A stretch of DNA of 62,522 nt, the filler included, from an uncultured archaeon (GTDB lineage: Archaea; Iainarchaeota; Iainarchaeia; Iainarchaeales; 1-14-0-10-31-34), in NCBI GenBank assembly GCA_964442255.1. It is 3 parts of 3 records of this genome, joined end to end, with 100 filler letters (N's around TTAATTAATTAA, not from the genome) between each part and the next. Parts side by side here need not be neighbours in the genome. Positions count along the whole stretch, not along the records: positions 23,040 to 44,640 come from CAYTYC010000024.1; 2 more parts are not named here. One strand, 5' to 3'. Position numbers: made by a program. Shown piece after piece: positions 30,001 through 36,000 of the stretch; positions within the stretch are counted from its first letter, which is position 1; each line of letters begins with the position of its first letter.

Positions 30001-33000
30001 AGCCTGAATGAAGAATTAAACGGAAGAATTTTGGTGGACGGGACAATTGAAAAGCCGGAGCCCGGAAACGGGGAGAAACAAAACACGGAAAACGGTTCAG
30101 CCGAATCAGGGGAAAACGGGACAGGGCTGCAGGAATTCGGGCTCACGGAAGAAGAGGGAACAGTTTACGTTTTAGCTTCAATTGCTGGCGCGGTGCTGCT
30201 GGTTTTAATTGCCTGGAAACTCAAAGGATAAGGTAATAAAGGTTATTTTGGGGAATTTCTTTTTAAGCGGTTGTAGTCTAGCCTGGTTAGGACACAAGCT
30301 TGCCAAGCTTGAAACCCGGGTTCAAATCCCGGCGACCGCACTTGCCGGTTTCGCCCGACAGAGACGAGATACGTCAACCCGTCCCTCACTCTGTTCGGTA
30401 TGGGTTATAAATATTGTTAATTACTCGCAGGCTATTTGTTGTCTTCCATTGGGCCGAACAATTTGGTTAAAACCAGTGTGAAAACAACCGCAATCAATGT
30501 TACAGCAATTGCGACAACTGTGAGCGTCATTGCCCCTTCACCCGATTCAATTATGGGCTTCAGCCATTCGGTAATCGCGTCCCTCCACATCAGTCCCGCC
30601 ACAAAAGCCATTGCGCCGGTTGTCAAAACAAGGGACTGTTTTTTGATGTCTTTAATTATGCTCTTCATTTTTGACCCCCTTTAAAAGTACTGTTTAAAGA
30701 AAGAAAAAGTATTTAAAAAAAGCCTGCCCCCAAGTCTTACTGCGCATCCGTGGTCTAGTGGTTAGGATCGAAGCCTTCCATTAACGAAAGTTTAAGTGAA
30801 CAGAAAGTGTTCAAACGGGCTTTCCCGGAGGACAGCTTCTGACCCGGGTTCGAATCCCGGCGGATGCATTTGCCGGCTTTTCCCGGCAGTGGAACCTCCC
30901 ATGCTAACGCATGGAACTGGCTCGGCTTCGCCTCGCATTTGCCAAGTCCGCAGGGCAGGTCCGGTGTCCTACTGCCTCACTAGGTTCGGCAGTAGATATG
31001 CTCGCTAACGCTCGCATTTTACCATTTTCGCGGCAGGGGAGAAATACGTCAGCCCATCGCACAGCGAGGGGTTATAAATAGGGCTTATTTTAACCGCATT
31101 TGCCGGCTTTCCCCGGCAGCGGAATCCCGCCTGCTTGCGGGAGTGGAGTGTGCCCTACTCCATATGGCACTGGCTTGCTGACGCTTGCATTTAAGGGTTT
31201 GACAGCAGAATCTGGATACGTCAATCCATCCCTAAAAGAATAGGCCATAAACATTACTTAAAATGCCAAAACTATTTTGAGTGAATTGAACGGTAAAGTT
31301 GTTCAGCGGTCAGCCTGTTTTTTCCATCAAACCAGTCTAAAACCAAGGAATATGCGCCCTTTTTCATCCTTCTGTCATTTGACCCATCCAAAATCGCTGA
31401 ATAGGCCAAATTCGCACCTGGGTCTTTCTTCCTTCTATTTTTTACTAACCTAAAGTGTGCAGCGGTTAAGCCCATTATTCCTTTTGTTTTCATTATATCC
31501 TCAACTGAAGCGTAACTTCCTTTTCTCAACCCTTTCGCTAGTTTCCGTTGAGCGTCAAAAACATCATGGCTTAATTGTAATCCCGTAACCTTAGTCAAAC
31601 GGGCCATTTCTTTGCGGAGCCTAGCATATTCATTCACATCAGCAAGGGCCGGGTTCCTTCTTTCAAGCTTTACGGAAAGAATATGAAACTTTTTCTTAAG
31701 TTCCTGTATGCGAGCAACATTTCCAGTTACCATTCTTGTCTGACGCTCATAAGCCGCAGATCTTTGTGGGAGTTGCTTGGGTTTTCTGAGCACAATCAAT
31801 CCCTCTCAAAAAAATAATGGCTGTTGTATATAAAAGTTTTTTGGGTTTTTTCTTATTTTTTAAGCTTTTTCACGAGTTCTTCAGCATTCCGCCCCTTGTG
31901 GGGCCCTTTTCCGCGGATCCATTTCAGACACCAATCCAACTAGTTTCTCCTCACGCGCAAGTCTAACTGCTTCCCTTATTCCTGCCTGAAGGACCCGTAT
32001 CTGTGTCTCTCTGCCTTTATCGGCTTGTTCCCTTTGGTTCCTCGCGTGAATTTGGGCTCTTTCAGCAGCTGAAATTCTTTTCGCCAAAACCAATCGGAAT
32101 TAGGGGCTGTTTCAGCTGCTTCTGTTGAAGACTTTCAGCAGCTGAAATTCTTTTCGCCAAAACCAATCGGAATTAGGGGCTGTTTCAGCTGCTTCTGTTG
32201 AAGACTTTCAGCAGCTGAAATTCTTTTCGCCAAAACCAATCCCTCCTGAAAAGGTATTAGGGCAAGGCAGTATATAAAGCTTTTTTCTTTCATATTTTTT
32301 GGGTGATTTTAATGGATTTTTTTGAGGCCGTGGAAAAGCGGAGGTCTGTGCGGGAGTTTAAGGAAAAAGAGGTGGAAGAGGAGAAGCTGCAGAAGATTCT
32401 GGAAACAGTGAACCTTGCGCCGAGCGCAGGGGATTTGCAGGCTTACGAAGTTGTTGTGATTAAAAGCGCGGAAAAAAGGAAGGAGCTGGCTGAAGCGGCT
32501 TTTAACCAGCTGAAGAACTCCAAAACAGAGCCAATTTCCTTGGTGTTTTTTGCAAACCCTGAAAGAAGCGCGCAAAGGTACGGGGAAAGGGGGGAAAAAC
32601 TTTATGCGGTGCAGGACGCGACAATCGCAGCAGCTTACGCGCAGCTGGCTGCAACGGCGCTTGGTTTGGGAAGCGTGTGGATCGGCGCATTTGACCCGGA
32701 GGCAGTGAAAAAAGTCTGCAAGGCTTCGGAAGGGTTAGAGCCTGTGGCGATTATTCAAATCGGTTACCCCGCTGAAAAGCCGGAGAGGGCTCCGCGGAGA
32801 GAGTTAAAGGATTTGGTGAAACGGAAAGAATTCAAATGAAGCCAAAAGAAAAAAGTGCTGTGCAGGGAATTGCGCTGGAAAGAATTTACAGGCTGGCGGA
32901 GTTGGCTGGGCAGGAGTTCAGCGAGCACCCTGAACGGAGCAAAGATTACGCGCAGCTCATTAAAAGGATTGGAATGAGGTGCAACGTGAAAATTCCTTCC

Positions 33001-36000
33001 GAAGTGAGGGAAAAGTTCTGCAAGAAATGCTTTGCTTTTTTGAAGCCGGGGGTGAATGCGGAAGTGAGAGTGAAAGAAAAGGGGTTGGTGGTGAAATGCA
33101 GGGAATGCGGGGCATTCAAGAAAATTAAATTAGAGAAGCCGGAAAAAAAGCTGGTTATAGGGATTACCGGCAGTTTGGGGACAGGAAAAACCGCGGTTCT
33201 CAAGGAATTCGGGGAACTGGGCGCGGAAACAATTCAGGCTGATGAAGTTGCAAAAGAGCTACTGGAAAAAAAGCCAAAGTTAAGGGACAGGATTAAAAGG
33301 CTTTTTGGGGAGAAGGTGTTTAAAGGGCCTGTACTTCAATCCAAAAAATTGGGGGAAATTGTCTTCACGGATTACGGAAAGCTAAGGAAACTGAATGCAT
33401 TGGTTCACCCTGAAGTGAAAAAAGAATTAAGGAGAAGGATTAAGGCAGGCAAAAAAAAGGTGGTGGCGGTTGAAGTGCCATTGCTTTTTGAATCCCGGAT
33501 GAAAGGGTTCTTTGATTTGGTGGTAGTGGTGTGGAGCGAAAAAGAAAAACAGCTTCAGAGAATGAAGAAAAAAGGGCTAAGCGAAAAAGAGGCGCTTAAA
33601 CGGATTAACGCGCAGATGAGGCAAGCGGAAAAGAAAAGGCGCGGAAACATTATAATAGAAAATAATAAGGGCGTGAAGGAACTCAAAAAAAAGGCCTTTG
33701 TTGTCTGGAACGAGGTAGTGGAGGAATTCAATTGAAGGCCGTTTACGCCGGCACGTTTGATCCCGTAACCTTCGGGCACCTGGATGTCGTGGGCCGCGCG
33801 CTTGGGTTGTTTGAAGAACTGATTGTGTTGGTTGCAAAAAACCCGCGGAAAGAGCCCCTTTTCAGTGCGGAGGAAAGGGTGGAATTGCTGGAAAAGGCTT
33901 TGGCAGGAAAAAAGAATGTTAAGGTTGAGGCATTTGACGGTTTGCTGGTGGATTATTTAAAGGAAAAAGGGCTGAAGTTTGTTGTCCGCGGGCTAAGGGA
34001 AATGATTGACTTTGGAAACGAATTCCAGCAGGCAATAACCAACAAAAAACTGAATCCGGAGATTGAAACAATTTTTTTGATGACTTCCCCAAAGTATTTC
34101 TATTTGAACTCTACGCTTGTGAAGGAAGTCGTGAAGTTTGGCGGCCCTGCGGGAGAGTTTGTGCCAAAAGAAGTTGAGGAAGCGCTGAAAAATAAAATGA
34201 AGTGAGTTATTCTTCCCTTGTGTCTTTCCTTATTTGAAACCGCCTTAAATGCTTTTCCACGGTGTTTTTCAGGGCACGCCAGTTTTCCTCTGCAAATGCT
34301 TCCGGGATAAAAAAAGCCCTTAACTGGTGCGCGAATATCCCGCTAAAGCGGGGTTTGCCGTCTGGCTTTCGTTTTGCCTCTTTTTCAGCCCTTTTTTCAA
34401 AAATTTCAAGAAGGTCCAACGCTTTCCGCATAGTTGAAACGCGTTCCTTGCCGGGAAGCTGTTTCAGGGAAAACCTTTGGTGAAAGCCAGCCATTTCAAG
34501 GCCGCGGTTGGCTCTTTCAGCCTCGTCCCTTGAGGCGAGTTTGGGGGGGGTGCTTTCTTTTCGTTGACTCAATTAATTTTCTTCCCTTTGAGCCCGGCTT
34601 TTTAAGTTTCCCGGAAAAGAAATCAAACAGCCTTCTTAAAGGGCCTGGTTTCCTTGTTTTTCTTCTTCCGCGGGGCATAAGCAAACCTATAAAAACCTTA
34701 TTTGGGGGATTTAATATAATATATAAGGGTTTGAAGCTGCTTATATAGGTTGAATTTTTGGTTTTAAAGTGGTTTTTATGGTTAGAGCATATGATGTGCA
34801 CGGAACGGATTTGGTGAAAGGGCTGGCTGAAGAGCTGAAAAAAAATCCCGCCCTAAAGCAGCCTGAATGGGTTGAATGGGTGAAAACCGGCAGGCACAGG
34901 GAAAGGGCGCCCACAGACAGGGAATGGTATTACACGAGAATGGCGTCAATTCTGAGAAGGGTTTACGTTGACGGGCCGGTGGGAACGGAAAGTTTGAGAA
35001 GCTATTACGGGGGAAGAAAGGCAAGGGGAGTCAGAAAGCACAAGGTGTTCAAGGCATCAGGAAAGGTTGTGAGAAACTGTTTGCAGGCGCTGGAAAAAGA
35101 GGGGTTCATCAAAAAAGAAAAAACAGGCAGGGCGATTACAGCAAAAGGAGCAAGCCTTTTAAGCAAAAAATCAAAGGAATTGTTTGAAAAAATGAAGGCG
35201 GAAAAGTCAAAAAAAGCTGAAAGAAAGGCTGTTCCGCAAAAGCCGGTGCCTGAGAAAAAATTTGAGGAAGCTAAAAAGAAAAGCGAAGCGAAAGCAGAGC
35301 CAGTGCCATCAAAGATCCGGCACACAGAAACCGCGGGAAGGCGGGGCTTACCGCCGGATGAAACCGGCAAAAAAGAAAAGGTTGAAGGGCATGGAAGAGG
35401 AGGAATTAAGGAAGAAAAAACTGGAAGAGCTGAAGCAAAAGATGCAGGAAAACCAGCAGCAGCAAAACCAGCAGCTTCAGGCTGAAATGAGGCTTGACGC
35501 GGCAATGAAGCAAATGCTTGAACCGGAAGCCAGGGAAAGGCTTAACCGGGTGAAGCTCGTGAACCGGGAATTGTATGGGGCAGCTGCACAGAATTTGCTT
35601 TACCTTTCCCGTGCCGGGCAAATTGAAGGAAAGCTCTCGGATTCAGGGTTAAAGGAATTGCTGGAAAAAATTTCGGGCTCCACTAAAAAGGATTTCACGA
35701 TAAAAAGGAAATGAAAATGGCAAAAAACAAGGAAGAAGAAAAAAAAGATTTCATGATTTCTGTGCGGGAAAAAATCGGCCCAAGCATCAGCACCGCCCCG
35801 GTTTGGCTTTACCAAAAGGCAAACGAAAGGCTGTGGAACAAGAGGCAAAAAAGGCATTGGAGGGACACGGATTTGGGCGGGCTGTACAGGAAGCACAGGA
35901 AAAAACAGAAAACAGGGGAAAAAAAGAAAATTAAAAGCGGAAAGCACAAAAAGAAAAAAAGGGGCAGGAAATGAAGGCATTCACTGTTTCGTTTCAGGGG

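What a model noticed while it worked through the whole genome (the two positions that open the first line are those of the whole stretch)
32836..33735. The only RNase P protein Rpp21 is fused to a bacterial-type dephospho-CoA kinase
g01159 (299 aa) joins an intact Rpp21/Rpr2 zinc-ribbon domain (residues 17-92, four Cys kept), the genome's only copy of this RNase P subunit, to a complete CoaE dephospho-CoA kinase (106-281) and sits directly before the phosphopantetheine adenylyltransferase gene. I read it as an RNase P holoenzyme that carries a CoA-pathway kinase, linking tRNA 5' maturation to CoA supply or to dephospho-CoA-capped RNA. New would be a Rosetta-stone fusion between RNase P and coenzyme A metabolism, confined to Iainarchaeota.
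Evidence so far: Pfam Rpr2 E 1e-15 and CoaE E 2e-44; Swiss-Prot: residues 5-98 46% identical to Methanosarcina RNase P component 4, 106-292 38-41% to Bacillus/Listeria CoaE; NCBIfam equivalog dephospho-CoA kinase; no other Rpr2 hit in pfam.tsv, the other subunits (Rpp29 g00349, Rpp30 g00043, Pop5 g00048) are unfused. Search of 5.8 billion proteins: 170 hits at E<=1e-10, of the 120 listed only 11 (this one and 10 at 43-51% identity, named Diapherotrites or 'archaeon' where named) carry both domains over 95-99% of the query; all others are plain CoaE of ~200 aa or other fusions. CoaE is in 91 of 195 genomes of the order but 4% of archaea; Rpr2 in 133 of 195 (relatives.tsv, call 162).
(Added by a program. 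Inside this text positions count along the whole contig: they may not be those of the stretch shown here. "Call 12" and the like, gene names such as g00115 and contig names such as C1 are that model's own, and its searches are not shown. The text may have been shortened before it was handed on; [...] marks where a part breaks off. The agent that wrote the report below was given it as the finding of a first reader that could run no searches.)

Follow-up and report, generated by a model that had tools for sequence, protein, structure and literature searches.

The report
RNase P subunit fused to CoA kinase
One family of tiny Iainarchaeota archaea makes its only RNase P subunit Rpp21 and its only dephospho-CoA kinase as a single protein, most likely because a two-gene CoA cassette landed right behind the rpp21 gene and the stop codon between them was lost.

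Summary
ORF 32836-33735 (+, 299 aa) joins a complete Rpp21/Rpr2 zinc-ribbon domain to a complete bacterial-type CoaE. Each is the genome's only copy, and a bacterial-type CoaD gene overlaps the stop codon by 4 bases.

Synteny explains its origin. In sister families rpp21 heads the S19e-L31e-eIF6 cluster, separated from it by a slot with variable contents, while coaE-coaD sits elsewhere. In this family coaE-coaD fills that slot, joined end to end to rpp21 with nothing deleted or added.

Both halves look functional. All zinc and kinase motifs are invariant, no internal start codon is conserved, and the Rpp29 interface is predicted to be intact and shows a compensated charge swap. So RNase P here probably does carry a kinase domain physically.

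Nothing supports a functional tRNA-CoA link: the fusion arose once, CoaE fuses with many partners, and the kinase's target 3'-OH is blocked in dpCoA-capped RNA.

Open hints remain: the junction is predicted to be rigid, and one genome keeps the fusion without any recognisable PPAT. No report of the architecture was found in print. Interest is moderate.

The parts
32271..32278 (+). TATA-like box (TATATAAA) 25 nt upstream of the first start codon of the three-gene unit; candidate archaeal promoter for a leaderless transcript
   Evidence: Read directly from the sequence. Its function as a promoter is inferred and was not tested.
32303..32839 (+). Nitroreductase-family gene (178 aa), first gene of the tightly packed unit; its stop overlaps the fusion's ATG by 4 bases (ATGA)
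   Evidence: ORF; Pfam Nitroreductase E 5.9e-30; overlap seen.
32836..33735 (+). Rpp21::CoaE fusion gene, 299 aa
   Evidence: It is conserved as one frame in 8 of 9 genomes of the family.
32836..33144 (+). Rpp21/Rpr2 domain (residues 1-103): two N-terminal helices plus a C-terminal zinc ribbon
   Evidence: Pfam Rpr2 at residues 17-92. PDB sequence matches cover residues 4-103 (2k3r, 1x0t, 6k0a_G). Fold match to 1x0t has TM 0.86 and rmsd 1.2 A over 99 columns. Predicted Rpp29 contacts all lie in residues 1-49.
33019..33108 (+). Zinc-ribbon Cys pairs C62/C65 and C88/C91 (codons TGC at 33019, 33028, 33097, 33106)
   Evidence: Codons read; the four Cys are invariant in 11 of 11 fused proteins.
33130..33153 (+). 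Junction (residues 99-106, L-E-K-P-E-K-K-L): the natural C-terminal tail of Rpp21 abuts the natural N-terminus of CoaE; no in-frame ATG, GTG or TTG
   Evidence: Alignment with standalone forms shows an end-to-end join. pLDDT stays at 90 or above through the junction in two models.
33145..33735 (+). CoaE dephospho-CoA kinase domain (residues 104-299) and stop codon
   Evidence: Pfam CoaE at residues 106-281. TIGR00152 scores 136.8 bits against a cut-off of 65.55. Fold matches to solved DPCKs have TM 0.79-0.88 for the closest.
33169..33192 (+). P-loop G-S-L-G-T-G-K-T (residues 112-119)
   Evidence: Codons read. T111, G112, G117 and K118 are invariant in 11 of 11 fused proteins.
33732..34205 (+). 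Bacterial-type CoaD (phosphopantetheine adenylyltransferase, 157 aa); its TTG start overlaps the fusion's stop by 4 bases
   Evidence: TIGR01510 scores 192.3 bits against a cut-off of 103.3. CoaD follows the fusion directly in 7 of 8 fusion loci of the family.
34769..37087 (+). S19e, PDCD5-like dsDNA-binding protein, L31e and eIF6: the conserved cluster that rpp21 precedes in sister families
   Evidence: Pfam matches; synteny found in 6 of 8 non-family rpp21 loci.

Best explanation
This is a real, stably inherited bifunctional protein made by a single gene rearrangement. In the ancestor of one Iainarchaeota family, the order's existing coaE-coaD pair moved into the variable slot directly behind rpp21, which heads the S19e-L31e-eIF6 cluster. 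The stop codon between rpp21 and coaE was lost, so the two reading frames were joined end to end.

Each half keeps its own job. The N-terminal 103 residues serve as Rpp21: they pair with Rpp29 through the two N-terminal helices and sit on the S-domain of the RNase P RNA. The C-terminal 196 residues are the cell's only dephospho-CoA kinase. Together with the co-translated CoaD, it finishes CoA from salvaged 4'-phosphopantetheine, because the genome lacks CoaB and CoaC.

The kinase therefore rides on RNase P as a passenger, near the Rpp21 C-terminus at the periphery of the complex. It is tolerated because both functions are needed at low, constitutive levels. It is kept because splitting the gene again would need a new stop, a new start and new translation signals all at once.

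Shown: the anatomy, the distribution, the synteny, the motif conservation and the lack of a conserved internal start.
Inferred: both activities, incorporation into the holoenzyme, and the absence of any cross-talk between the two halves.
For: Distribution.
- Full-length matches occur only in family f1. They are found in 8 of 9 f1 genomes covering 4 genera, at E 1e-66 or better.
- Among the 150 listed matches from 196 genomes of the order, every other genome has separate Rpp21 and CoaE matches. The 108 unlisted matches are weaker than E 2e-21.
- Only 4 of the top 150 representatives among 1.84 billion span both domains, and the score then drops from 222 to 140 bits.

Synteny.
- In other families rpp21 lies upstream of S19e-PDCD5-like-L31e-eIF6 in 6 of 8 loci, with 0.2-2 kb of unrelated cargo between. 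coaE-coaD is a pair elsewhere in 6 of 6 loci.
- In f1 the order is rpp21::coaE, coaD, S19e and onward.
- A published survey describes RPP21 followed by yhbY and ribosomal-protein genes as the ancestral locus (PMC4919917, section 2.2 read).

Nature of the join.
- It is end to end, keeping the natural termini of both proteins.
- The fused CoaE domains form one group on the tree (8 rows, 1 change, SH-aLRT 89), nested among the order's standalone CoaEs (quick tree).

Both halves under constraint.
- The four Cys, the P-loop, D136, H191-P192, L216-L217-E219 and R242 are invariant in 11 of 11 fused proteins at 42-51% overall identity.
- There is no ATG, GTG or TTG near the junction in 4 of 8 fused genes, and none is conserved in the other 4.

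RNase P context.
- The RNA, Rpp29, Rpp30 and Pop5 are present. The RNA is found in 9 of 9 f1 genomes.
- Complex model of fusion plus Rpp29: score 0.83, best of 3 controls 0.00. That mark was reached by 116 of 157 solved complexes and 2 of 215 mismatched pairs. The runs agree in 100% of contacts and partner pLDDT is at least 82. All contacts lie in fusion residues 1-49. Because like complexes are solved, the pass may come from memory.
- Interface co-variation: Rpp21 position 37 is Arg in 8 of 8 standalone proteins and Asp/Glu in 8 of 8 fused ones. Rpp29 position 43 is Asp in 20 of 26 non-f1 sequences and Lys in 9 of 9 f1 genomes. Both positions are in the predicted interface.

CoA context.
- No archaeal DPCK (DUF359; best E 0.09) and no CoaB. 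The only flavoprotein hit is UbiX.

CoaE fuses with many partners.
- Fpg-CoaE and QueH-CoaE fusions exist in other lineages.
Against: - The junction is not a floppy tether. Two fused proteins that are 42% identical both fold with pLDDT about 96, pTM 0.84 and 0.80, and junction pLDDT of 90 or more. This hints at a fixed, possibly adapted, two-domain unit.
- G018 (99% complete) keeps the fusion with an intact P-loop, but it has no CoaD by protein search and only one generic cytidylyltransferase, which scores 36 bits against the archaeal PPAT model (cut-off 104). There the kinase domain persists without its recognisable pathway partner.
- The Rpp21 domain, the CoaE domain and CoaD of f1 are each somewhat more distant from other families than control genes are: identity ratios 0.86-0.87, 0.91 and 0.87, against 0.99-1.06 for S19e, eIF6 and Rpp29. 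For Rpp21, however, the signature changes are shared with the unfused Rpp21 of G156.
- In M. jannaschii the extra C-terminal residues of Rpp21 pack on L7Ae and the P12 junction (PMC6565675, passages read). A rigidly attached 22-kDa domain there might clash with them or replace something. I could not test this.
- Two Thermococcus homologues of bacterial DPCK lacked DPCK activity (PMC6650551, abstract read), so kinase activity is not proven by homology alone.
- E. coli PPAT is reported to add dpCoA caps to 5'-ppp-A RNA (review PMC11253889, passages read), so a link between this locus and RNA ends is not absurd.
Confidence: 0.7

Rival explanations
1. Functional coupling. The kinase mounted on RNase P ties tRNA 5' processing to CoA metabolism. 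It might sense ATP, dpCoA or CoA and so tune RNase P, or it might act on products released from CoA-linked 5' leaders.
For: - The fusion is retained across 4 genera at 42-51% identity.
- The junction is predicted to be rigid and confident in two orthologues.
- The fusion persists in G018 without a recognisable PPAT.
- PPAT, encoded by the next gene, is reported to cap 5'-ppp-A RNA with dpCoA (PMC11253889, passages read).
- There is a precedent for a metabolic enzyme in an RNase P: SDR5C1 in human mitochondrial RNase P (PMC4446446, abstract in search listing).
Against: - It is a single evolutionary event in one family.
- rpp21 and coaE are far apart in every other family examined, for example 130 kb in G083.
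- The insertion slot takes unrelated cargo in other families.
- CoaE fuses to unrelated upstream genes elsewhere.
- The DPCK target 3'-OH is not free in capped RNA (established chemistry, recalled).
- The kinase-domain motifs are those of ordinary CoaE.
Confidence: 0.12
2. The kinase domain has been co-opted as a structural module of RNase P, for example bracing or replacing contacts near L7Ae/P12. Its DPCK activity is secondary, or is being lost in part of the family.
For: - In G018 there is no CoaD after the fusion and no recognisable PPAT in a 99%-complete genome.
- The G018 lineage has a variant of the PLL(F)E motif, SALLVEE.
- pTM is high for the two-domain unit.
- In M. jannaschii the Rpp21 C-terminus lies at the L7Ae/P12 junction (PMC6565675, passages read).
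- The sister-like family f19 has remodelled the same end of Rpp21 by losing the zinc ribbon.
Against: - The P-loop, D136 and R242 remain invariant in all 11 fused proteins, including those of the G018 lineage.
- It is the only DPCK candidate in the window's genome.
- CoaD is co-translated with it in 7 of 8 fusion loci.
Confidence: 0.08
3. The cell makes two separate proteins after all, by internal translation initiation or by proteolytic cleavage at the junction, so RNase P carries no kinase.
For: - In 4 of 8 fused genes a GTG or TTG codon lies within a few codons of the P-loop strand.
- The junction is Lys-rich, which some proteases favour (recalled).
Against: - There is no ATG, GTG or TTG from 16 codons before to 4 codons after the IGxTG motif in the window's gene or in 3 other fused genes, and none is conserved.
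- Internal initiation would still leave Rpp21 attached to the kinase in the full-length product.
- The junction is predicted to be ordered, not an exposed loop.
Confidence: 0.05
4. The Rpp21 part is a relic. The protein works only as a kinase, and RNase P in this family runs without Rpp21.
For: - The curated RNase P component 4 equivalog cut-off is not reached: 70.3 bits against 162.
- Family f19 shows that Rpp21 can be heavily reduced in this order.
Against: - The four Cys and many helix residues are invariant.
- The window's domain is 48-63% identical to standalone orthologues.
- The fold matches solved Rpp21 at rmsd 1.2 A.
- The Rpp29 interface is predicted and shows a compensated charge swap that is kept in all members.
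- Rpp29 itself is retained in 9 of 9 f1 genomes.
Confidence: 0.04

Closest known systems
Standalone archaeal Rpp21 (RNase P component 4), e.g. P. horikoshii Ph1601p (1x0t, 2zae), P. furiosus Rpp21 (2k3r, 2ki7), M. jannaschii Rpp21 in the holoenzyme (6k0a/6k0b)
   Same: - It has the same fold of two N-terminal helices plus a four-Cys zinc ribbon (TM 0.84-0.86) and clear sequence homology (E 2e-16 to 6e-13).
- Rpp29 is predicted to bind through the N-terminal helices.
- The gene sits at the head of a ribosomal-protein cluster (PMC4919917, section 2.2 read).
   Different: It carries a 196-residue enzyme domain directly on its C-terminus with no added linker. It scores below the curated equivalog cut-off.
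Bacterial dephospho-CoA kinase CoaE (TIGR00152; e.g. 1uf9, 4ttp, 1jjv, 2grj)
   Same: - It scores over the equivalog cut-off.
- It has the same fold (TM 0.79-0.88 for the closest).
- The P-loop and other conserved residues are kept.
- It is paired with coaD.
   Different: It is found in an archaeon in place of the usual archaeal GTP-dependent DPCK (PMC6650551, abstract read; DUF359 absent). It can be made only as the C-terminal half of an RNase P protein.
Human mitochondrial RNase P subunit SDR5C1/MRPP2
   Same: It is a metabolic enzyme of acyl-CoA metabolism that is physically part of an RNase P (PMC4446446, abstract seen in the listing).
   Different: - That RNase P is protein-only.
- The enzyme is a separate subunit with a shown structural role.
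- Here the enzyme is covalently fused to a subunit of an RNA-based RNase P, and no role in RNase P has been shown.
Other CoaE fusions: eukaryotic CoA synthase PPAT-DPCK (2f6r), Fpg-CoaE, QueH-CoaE
   Same: CoaE tolerates partners at its N-terminus. Fpg-CoaE proteins are 467-479 aa and QueH-CoaE is 392 aa; the mouse CoA synthase DPCK domain appears among the matches.
   Different: Only PPAT-DPCK joins two steps of one pathway. The Rpp21 partner is a non-enzymatic RNP subunit. Archaeal PPAT fusions involve the unrelated arCOG04076 kinase (PMC6650551, abstract read).

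Membership tests
Rpp21/Rpr2 (Pfam PF04032), RNase P component 4 | Match to the family model over its curated score | tested here: met
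   Pfam gives 53.9 bits against a cut-off of 29.3, covering model positions 2-90 of 90.
Rpp21/Rpr2 (Pfam PF04032), RNase P component 4 | NCBIfam equivalog PRK03954 over its curated cut-off | tested here: not met
   The score is 70.3 bits against a cut-off of 162, although the match covers positions 8-105 of 121. That model is built for a narrower set of archaea, so this lowers the claim of strict equivalog naming but not of family membership.
Rpp21/Rpr2 (Pfam PF04032), RNase P component 4 | Four-Cys zinc ribbon after two long helices (L-shaped fold) | tested here: met
   C62, C65, C88 and C91 are invariant in 11 of 11 fused proteins. The model has helices at 3-27 and 32-48 and strands at 75-98. 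Match to 1x0t has TM 0.86 and rmsd 1.2 A.
Rpp21/Rpr2 (Pfam PF04032), RNase P component 4 | Forms a heterodimer with Rpp29 | tested here: inconclusive
   The model supports binding: score 0.83, best of 3 controls 0.00, a mark reached by 116 of 157 solved complexes and 2 of 215 mismatched pairs, 100% contact agreement between runs, partner pLDDT at least 82. The pass may be from memory of solved complexes. A compensated charge swap (Rpp21 R37 to D/E, Rpp29 D43 to K) supports a maintained interface. No experiment was done.
Rpp21/Rpr2 (Pfam PF04032), RNase P component 4 | Is part of an active RNase P holoenzyme | not testable with these tools
   The RNA, Rpp29, Rpp30 and Pop5 are encoded. L7Ae was not searched for.
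Dephospho-CoA kinase CoaE (PF01121, TIGR00152) | Match over the curated equivalog cut-off | tested here: met
   TIGR00152 gives 136.8 bits against a cut-off of 65.55; Pfam CoaE gives 148.5 bits against 27.
Dephospho-CoA kinase CoaE (PF01121, TIGR00152) | P-loop GxxxxGK[ST] and the other conserved family residues | tested here: met
   The P-loop is GSLGTGKT at residues 112-119. T111, G112, G117, K118, D136, H191, P192, L216, L217, E219 and R242 are invariant in 11 of 11 fused proteins. The catalytic roles of these residues are recalled and were not tested.
Dephospho-CoA kinase CoaE (PF01121, TIGR00152) | DPCK fold | tested here: met
   Foldseek matches to solved DPCKs have E 5e-14 to 1e-10 and target TM 0.79-0.88 for the closest.
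Dephospho-CoA kinase CoaE (PF01121, TIGR00152) | Phosphorylates dephospho-CoA | not testable with these tools
   Context supports it: coaD is adjacent and no other DPCK type is present. As a caveat, archaeal CoaE homologues TK1334 and TK2192 lacked this activity (PMC6650551, abstract read).

The most novel reading that the evidence does not exclude
In this family RNase P is a true chimera of a ribozyme complex and CoA-finishing enzymes, and the rigidly mounted kinase matters for both.

One chemically coherent version runs as follows. The co-translated PPAT caps 5'-ppp-A leaders of pre-tRNAs with phosphopantetheine, an activity reported for E. coli PPAT. RNase P cleavage then releases the leader with a free 3'-OH; for a one-nucleotide leader that product is dephospho-CoA itself. 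The kinase sitting on Rpp21 converts it to CoA on the spot.

Alternatively, the kinase domain reads ATP or dpCoA levels and gates tRNA maturation.

The persistence of the fusion in G018, which has no recognisable PPAT, would then reflect a role of the domain within RNase P itself.
Probability: 0.07. Interest if true: 0.85.

Novelty: new variant of a known kind. Interest (0 to 1): 0.45.

Why it matters
Archaeal and eukaryotic RNase P proteins are small RNA-binding subunits. A natural version with a 22-kDa metabolic enzyme welded to Rpp21 has not been reported in the papers I could search. Full-text searches for Rpp21 with dephospho-CoA kinase, RNase P with CoaE and fusion, Iainarchaeota with dephospho-CoA kinase, and Rpr2 with CoaE returned nothing relevant. 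The 2016 survey of archaeal RNase P proteins contains no occurrence of 'fusion', 'fused' or 'kinase'; its supplementary tables were not read.

If the fusion is only a passenger, it still shows two things:
- how much bulk the periphery of archaeal RNase P tolerates near L7Ae/P12;
- how gene fusions arise and become fixed in streamlined DPANN genomes, with an unusually clear before-and-after picture of the rearrangement.

It is also a warning against reading every 'Rosetta stone' fusion as a functional link.

If the kinase does influence RNase P, it would be a new kind of tie between cofactor metabolism and tRNA maturation, and it is testable by reconstitution.

Tried and rejected
- **Internal start giving a separate kinase.** Rejected for the window's gene and 3 other fused genes, which have no ATG, GTG or TTG near the junction; none is conserved in the remaining 4.
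- **A second Rpp21 in the genome.** The weak Rpr2 hit (E 0.02) lies in a CxxC-rich 247-aa ORF with no RNase P family match.
- **P0163 as a diverged Rpp21-CoaE.** P0163 is 305 aa with CoaE at residues 114-286. Its N-terminus has no Pfam match and no similarity to the fusion's Rpp21 part.
- **The PF02441 hit as CoaC.** It is a UbiX-family prenyltransferase.
- **Faster evolution of the Rpp21 domain caused by the fusion.** Identity ratios first suggested it (0.86-0.87 against 0.99-1.06 for controls). However, four of the six signature residues (D37, L39, M42, K43) also occur in the unfused Rpp21 of G156 in family f19. They belong to a remodelled Rpp29 interface and are not a result of the fusion. 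These ratios are crude mean identities and not a phylogenetic rate test. Part of the script failed on a mis-framed control, which was dropped.
- **Expression.** No RNA holder is listed.
- **Independent read support for the junction.** Run X1 laid nothing. Run X2 gave only fragments of 191-554 bases, none spanning 33078-33215. Contiguity rests instead on the same architecture in 7 other genomes.
- **Careful maximum-likelihood tree.** It did not finish in the time allowed, so the quick tree was used.
- **Superposing the model on 6K0A to test for clashes with L7Ae/P12.** Not possible, because no coordinates can be reached.
- **Comparing RNase P RNAs across families for a change tied to the fusion.** Not pursued. 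Lengths already vary from 271 to 384 nt within the family.

Full report
**1. What is there**

The window is two contigs of a 1.277 Mb, 93.8%-complete, 51-contig genome, joined across a gap. The finding lies on the second contig.

ORF 32836..33735 (+) encodes 299 aa.
- Pfam finds Rpr2 at residues 17-92 (53.9 bits, cut-off 29.3) and CoaE at 106-281 (148.5 bits).
- NCBIfam finds the dephospho-CoA kinase equivalog TIGR00152 at 136.8 bits (cut-off 65.55).
- The RNase P component 4 model scores 70.3 bits, below its cut-off of 162.
- By sequence the protein matches solved Rpp21 chains over residues 4-103 and solved CoaE chains from residue 105.

The gene is packed between two others with 4-base overlaps. 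A nitroreductase-family gene lies upstream (32303..32839). A bacterial-type CoaD lies downstream (33732..34205; TIGR01510, 192.3 bits). A TATA-like box sits 25 nt before the first start codon. Calling it a promoter is my inference.

**2. Only copies, and the rest of both systems**

In the window's own genome:
- Rpr2 has one hit over the cut-off. The only other hit (E 0.02) is a zinc-knuckle match in an unrelated 247-aa ORF.
- CoaE has one hit.
- The archaeal DPCK family DUF359 is absent (best E 0.09), although the same search found it in all four control archaea.

RNase P is otherwise complete. There is a full-length archaeal RNase P RNA with the conserved core motifs, Rpp29 (106 aa, in its usual ribosomal-protein context), Rpp30 and Pop5 (114-aa ORF). 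L7Ae was not searched for.

The CoA pathway is not complete. CoaB is absent, although the same search rang in 14 of 14 control genomes. The only flavoprotein hit is a UbiX-family enzyme and not CoaC. CoaD plus the fused CoaE therefore look like a two-step salvage route from 4'-phosphopantetheine. That is an inference.

**3. Distribution**

In the 5.8-billion-protein search, 11 of the 120 listed proteins carry both domains (43-51% identical, 290-301 aa). One is named Candidatus Diapherotrites archaeon, a name that NCBI places in the phylum Candidatus Iainarchaeota.

Reading every one of 1.84 billion cluster representatives with HMMER, only 4 of the best 150 span both domains. The score then falls from 222 to 140 bits.

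Across 196 genomes of the order:
- Full-length matches occur only in the window's own family f1. They are in 8 of 9 f1 genomes, covering 4 genera, at E 1e-66 or better.
- The ninth genome, G011, is 81% complete and lacks both halves and CoaD at once. This fits an unassembled locus.
- All other listed matches are separate Rpp21 frames (about 100-150 aa) and CoaE frames (about 200 aa) at different places, for example 130 kb apart in G083.

**4. How the fusion arose**

In 6 of 8 rpp21 loci from other families, rpp21 lies upstream of S19e, a PDCD5-like protein, L31e and eIF6 on the same strand. Between rpp21 and S19e there is 0.2-2 kb of unrelated cargo that differs from family to family: pilin-like proteins (named by eye), glycosyltransferase-like genes and small ORFs. 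A published survey describes RPP21 followed by yhbY and then ribosomal-protein genes as the ancestral archaeal locus (PMC4919917, section 2.2 read).

In 6 of 6 coaE loci from other families, coaE is followed directly by coaD, elsewhere in the genome.

In f1 the order is rpp21::coaE, coaD, S19e, PDCD5-like, L31e, eIF6. CoaD follows the fusion directly in 7 of 8 fusion loci.

Aligning fused and standalone forms shows an end-to-end join. Standalone Rpp21s stop 3-9 residues after the last zinc-ribbon strand. Standalone CoaEs start 1-4 residues before the IGxTG strand. The fusion keeps both termini, with nothing deleted and nothing added.

On a quick tree of 51 CoaE sequences the 8 fused domains form one group (one change, SH-aLRT 89), nested among the order's standalone CoaEs. 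The three named bacterial CoaEs fall across the midpoint root. The careful search did not finish.

So one event in the family's ancestor placed the order's own coaE-coaD pair behind rpp21 and merged the frames.

**5. Are both halves alive?**

In 11 fused proteins that are 42-51% identical to the query, these residues are invariant: the four Cys, T111-G112, G117-K118, D136, H191-P192, L216-L217-E219 and R242.

The window's gene and 3 other fused genes have no ATG, GTG or TTG from 16 codons before to 4 codons after the IGxTG motif. The other 4 have GTG or TTG at non-conserved positions. So the kinase is made as part of the fusion.

AlphaFold2 models of the window's protein and of a 42%-identical orthologue are confident throughout (pLDDT 96.0 and 95.7; pTM 0.84 and 0.80), including the junction. 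The two parts match solved DPCKs (TM 0.79-0.88 for the closest) and solved Rpp21 (1x0t: TM 0.86, rmsd 1.2 A). No solved chain covers both parts.

A complex model of the full fusion with this genome's Rpp29 gave these figures:
- score 0.83, best of 3 controls 0.00;
- the mark was reached by 116 of 157 solved complexes and 2 of 215 mismatched pairs;
- the runs agree in 100% of contacts, and partner pLDDT is at least 82;
- every confident contact lies in fusion residues 1-49.

Because Rpp21-Rpp29 complexes are solved, this pass shows likeness and is not proof of binding.

**6. An independent sign that the Rpp29 interface is kept**

The f1 Rpp21 domain is a little more distant from other families than control genes are. 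On the same genomes the identity ratio is 0.87, against 0.99 for S19e and 1.06 for eIF6; for Rpp29 it is 1.02.

The signature changes are F21M, R37D/E, V39L, A42M, R43K and F68L. Position 37 is Arg in 8 of 8 standalone proteins and acidic in 8 of 8 fused ones.

Rpp29 has just two f1-specific positions, I21N and D43K. Both are present in 9 of 9 f1 genomes, and both are in the predicted interface, as is Rpp21 residue 37. This is a compensated charge swap across the interface.

The one genome outside f1 with Rpp29 K43, G156 of family f19, has an unfused Rpp21 with D37, L39, M42 and K43. So the swap belongs to a wider clade and was not caused by the fusion. It counts as one evolutionary event. Even so, its conservation in every fused member argues that the fused protein still pairs with Rpp29.

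**7. What it most likely does**

The protein is a bifunctional passenger fusion. Rpp21 works in RNase P and carries the cell's only DPCK. [quoted passage not shown] The kinase would therefore hang at the periphery near those elements. I could not test for clashes.

**8. Why a functional tRNA-CoA link is not supported**

- The fusion arose in a single event.
- rpp21 and coaE are not adjacent anywhere else.
- The insertion slot accepts unrelated cargo.
- CoaE also fuses to Fpg (467-479 aa) and to QueH (392 aa) in other lineages.
- DPCK acts on the adenosine 3'-OH, which is esterified in dpCoA-capped RNA (recalled chemistry).

**9. What keeps the bolder reading alive**

- The junction is predicted to be rigid.
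- G018 (99% complete) retains the fusion but has no CoaD and only a generic nucleotidyltransferase.
- E. coli PPAT is reported to add dpCoA caps to 5'-ppp-A RNA (PMC11253889, passages read).
- Human mitochondrial RNase P contains a metabolic dehydrogenase (PMC4446446, abstract in the listing).

One caveat on the kinase itself: two Thermococcus CoaE homologues lacked DPCK activity (PMC6650551, abstract read).

**10. Novelty and verdict**

No paper in the searchable library mentions this architecture. The 2016 RPP survey has no occurrence of 'fusion', 'fused' or 'kinase'; its supplementary tables were not read.

I rate it a new variant of a known kind. It is a genuine, family-wide Rpp21-CoaE fusion with a clear mechanical origin and moderate interest (0.45). 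There is a small chance (about 0.07) of a real RNase P-CoA connection, which reconstitution experiments could settle.

Noticed in passing
L118 1504-1665 (G156:C19) and L117 1501-1665 (G157:C17): In family f19 the Rpp21 gene is cut down to 62-72 aa. It keeps only the two N-terminal, Rpp29-binding helices and has no Cys and no zinc ribbon in any frame nearby. It still lies just upstream of S19e. This looks like a natural 'mini-Rpp21' in the lineage that shares the f1 interface signature.
   Followed up: partly
L047 (G018:C1:12136-23014); G018 whole genome: G018 (99% complete) has the fusion followed after about 110 bases by S19e, with no CoaD. A CoaD protein search found nothing. Its only PF01467 protein is a generic nucleotidyltransferase that scores 36 bits against the archaeal PPAT model (cut-off 104). 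The kinase domain therefore persists without a recognisable PPAT.
   Followed up: partly
window 32059-32241: A perfect 73-bp tandem repeat (2.5 copies, 100% matches) lies in the intergenic region just upstream of the TATA-like box of the nitroreductase-fusion-CoaD unit. It could be a regulatory element or an assembly artefact.
   Followed up: no
G015:C2:100738-101592 and G015:C36:10-819; G015:C70 and C41: G015 holds two different fused genes (42% and 46% identical to the query) and two RNase P RNAs, but one Rpp29 match. The bin (3% contamination) probably mixes two related genomes.
   Followed up: partly
L038 3551-4964, L044 5284-5973, L041 3097-4979, L045 5433-5948: The slot between rpp21 and S19e carries different cargo in each family: proteins with pilin-like N-termini (named by eye), glycosyltransferase-like genes and a small secreted-looking protein. 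It behaves as a recurrent insertion site.
   Followed up: partly
P0209, P0068, P0074, P0112 (467-479 aa); P0034 (392 aa): CoaE is fused to the whole Fpg DNA glycosylase, and separately to the tRNA-modification enzyme QueH, in other (unnamed) lineages. P0163 and P0099 carry unexplained extensions of 110 aa and 190 aa.
   Followed up: partly
G000 whole genome; G000:C21:12139-12651: The genome lacks CoaB, and its only flavoprotein-family gene is UbiX-like. CoA synthesis therefore appears limited to the last two steps (CoaD and CoaE), which implies salvage of a pantetheine-type precursor.
   Followed up: partly
window 22940-23039: The window is two contigs of the assembly (C23 and C24) joined across a gap, so features on either side of position 23040 are not shown to be neighbours in the genome.
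   Followed up: no
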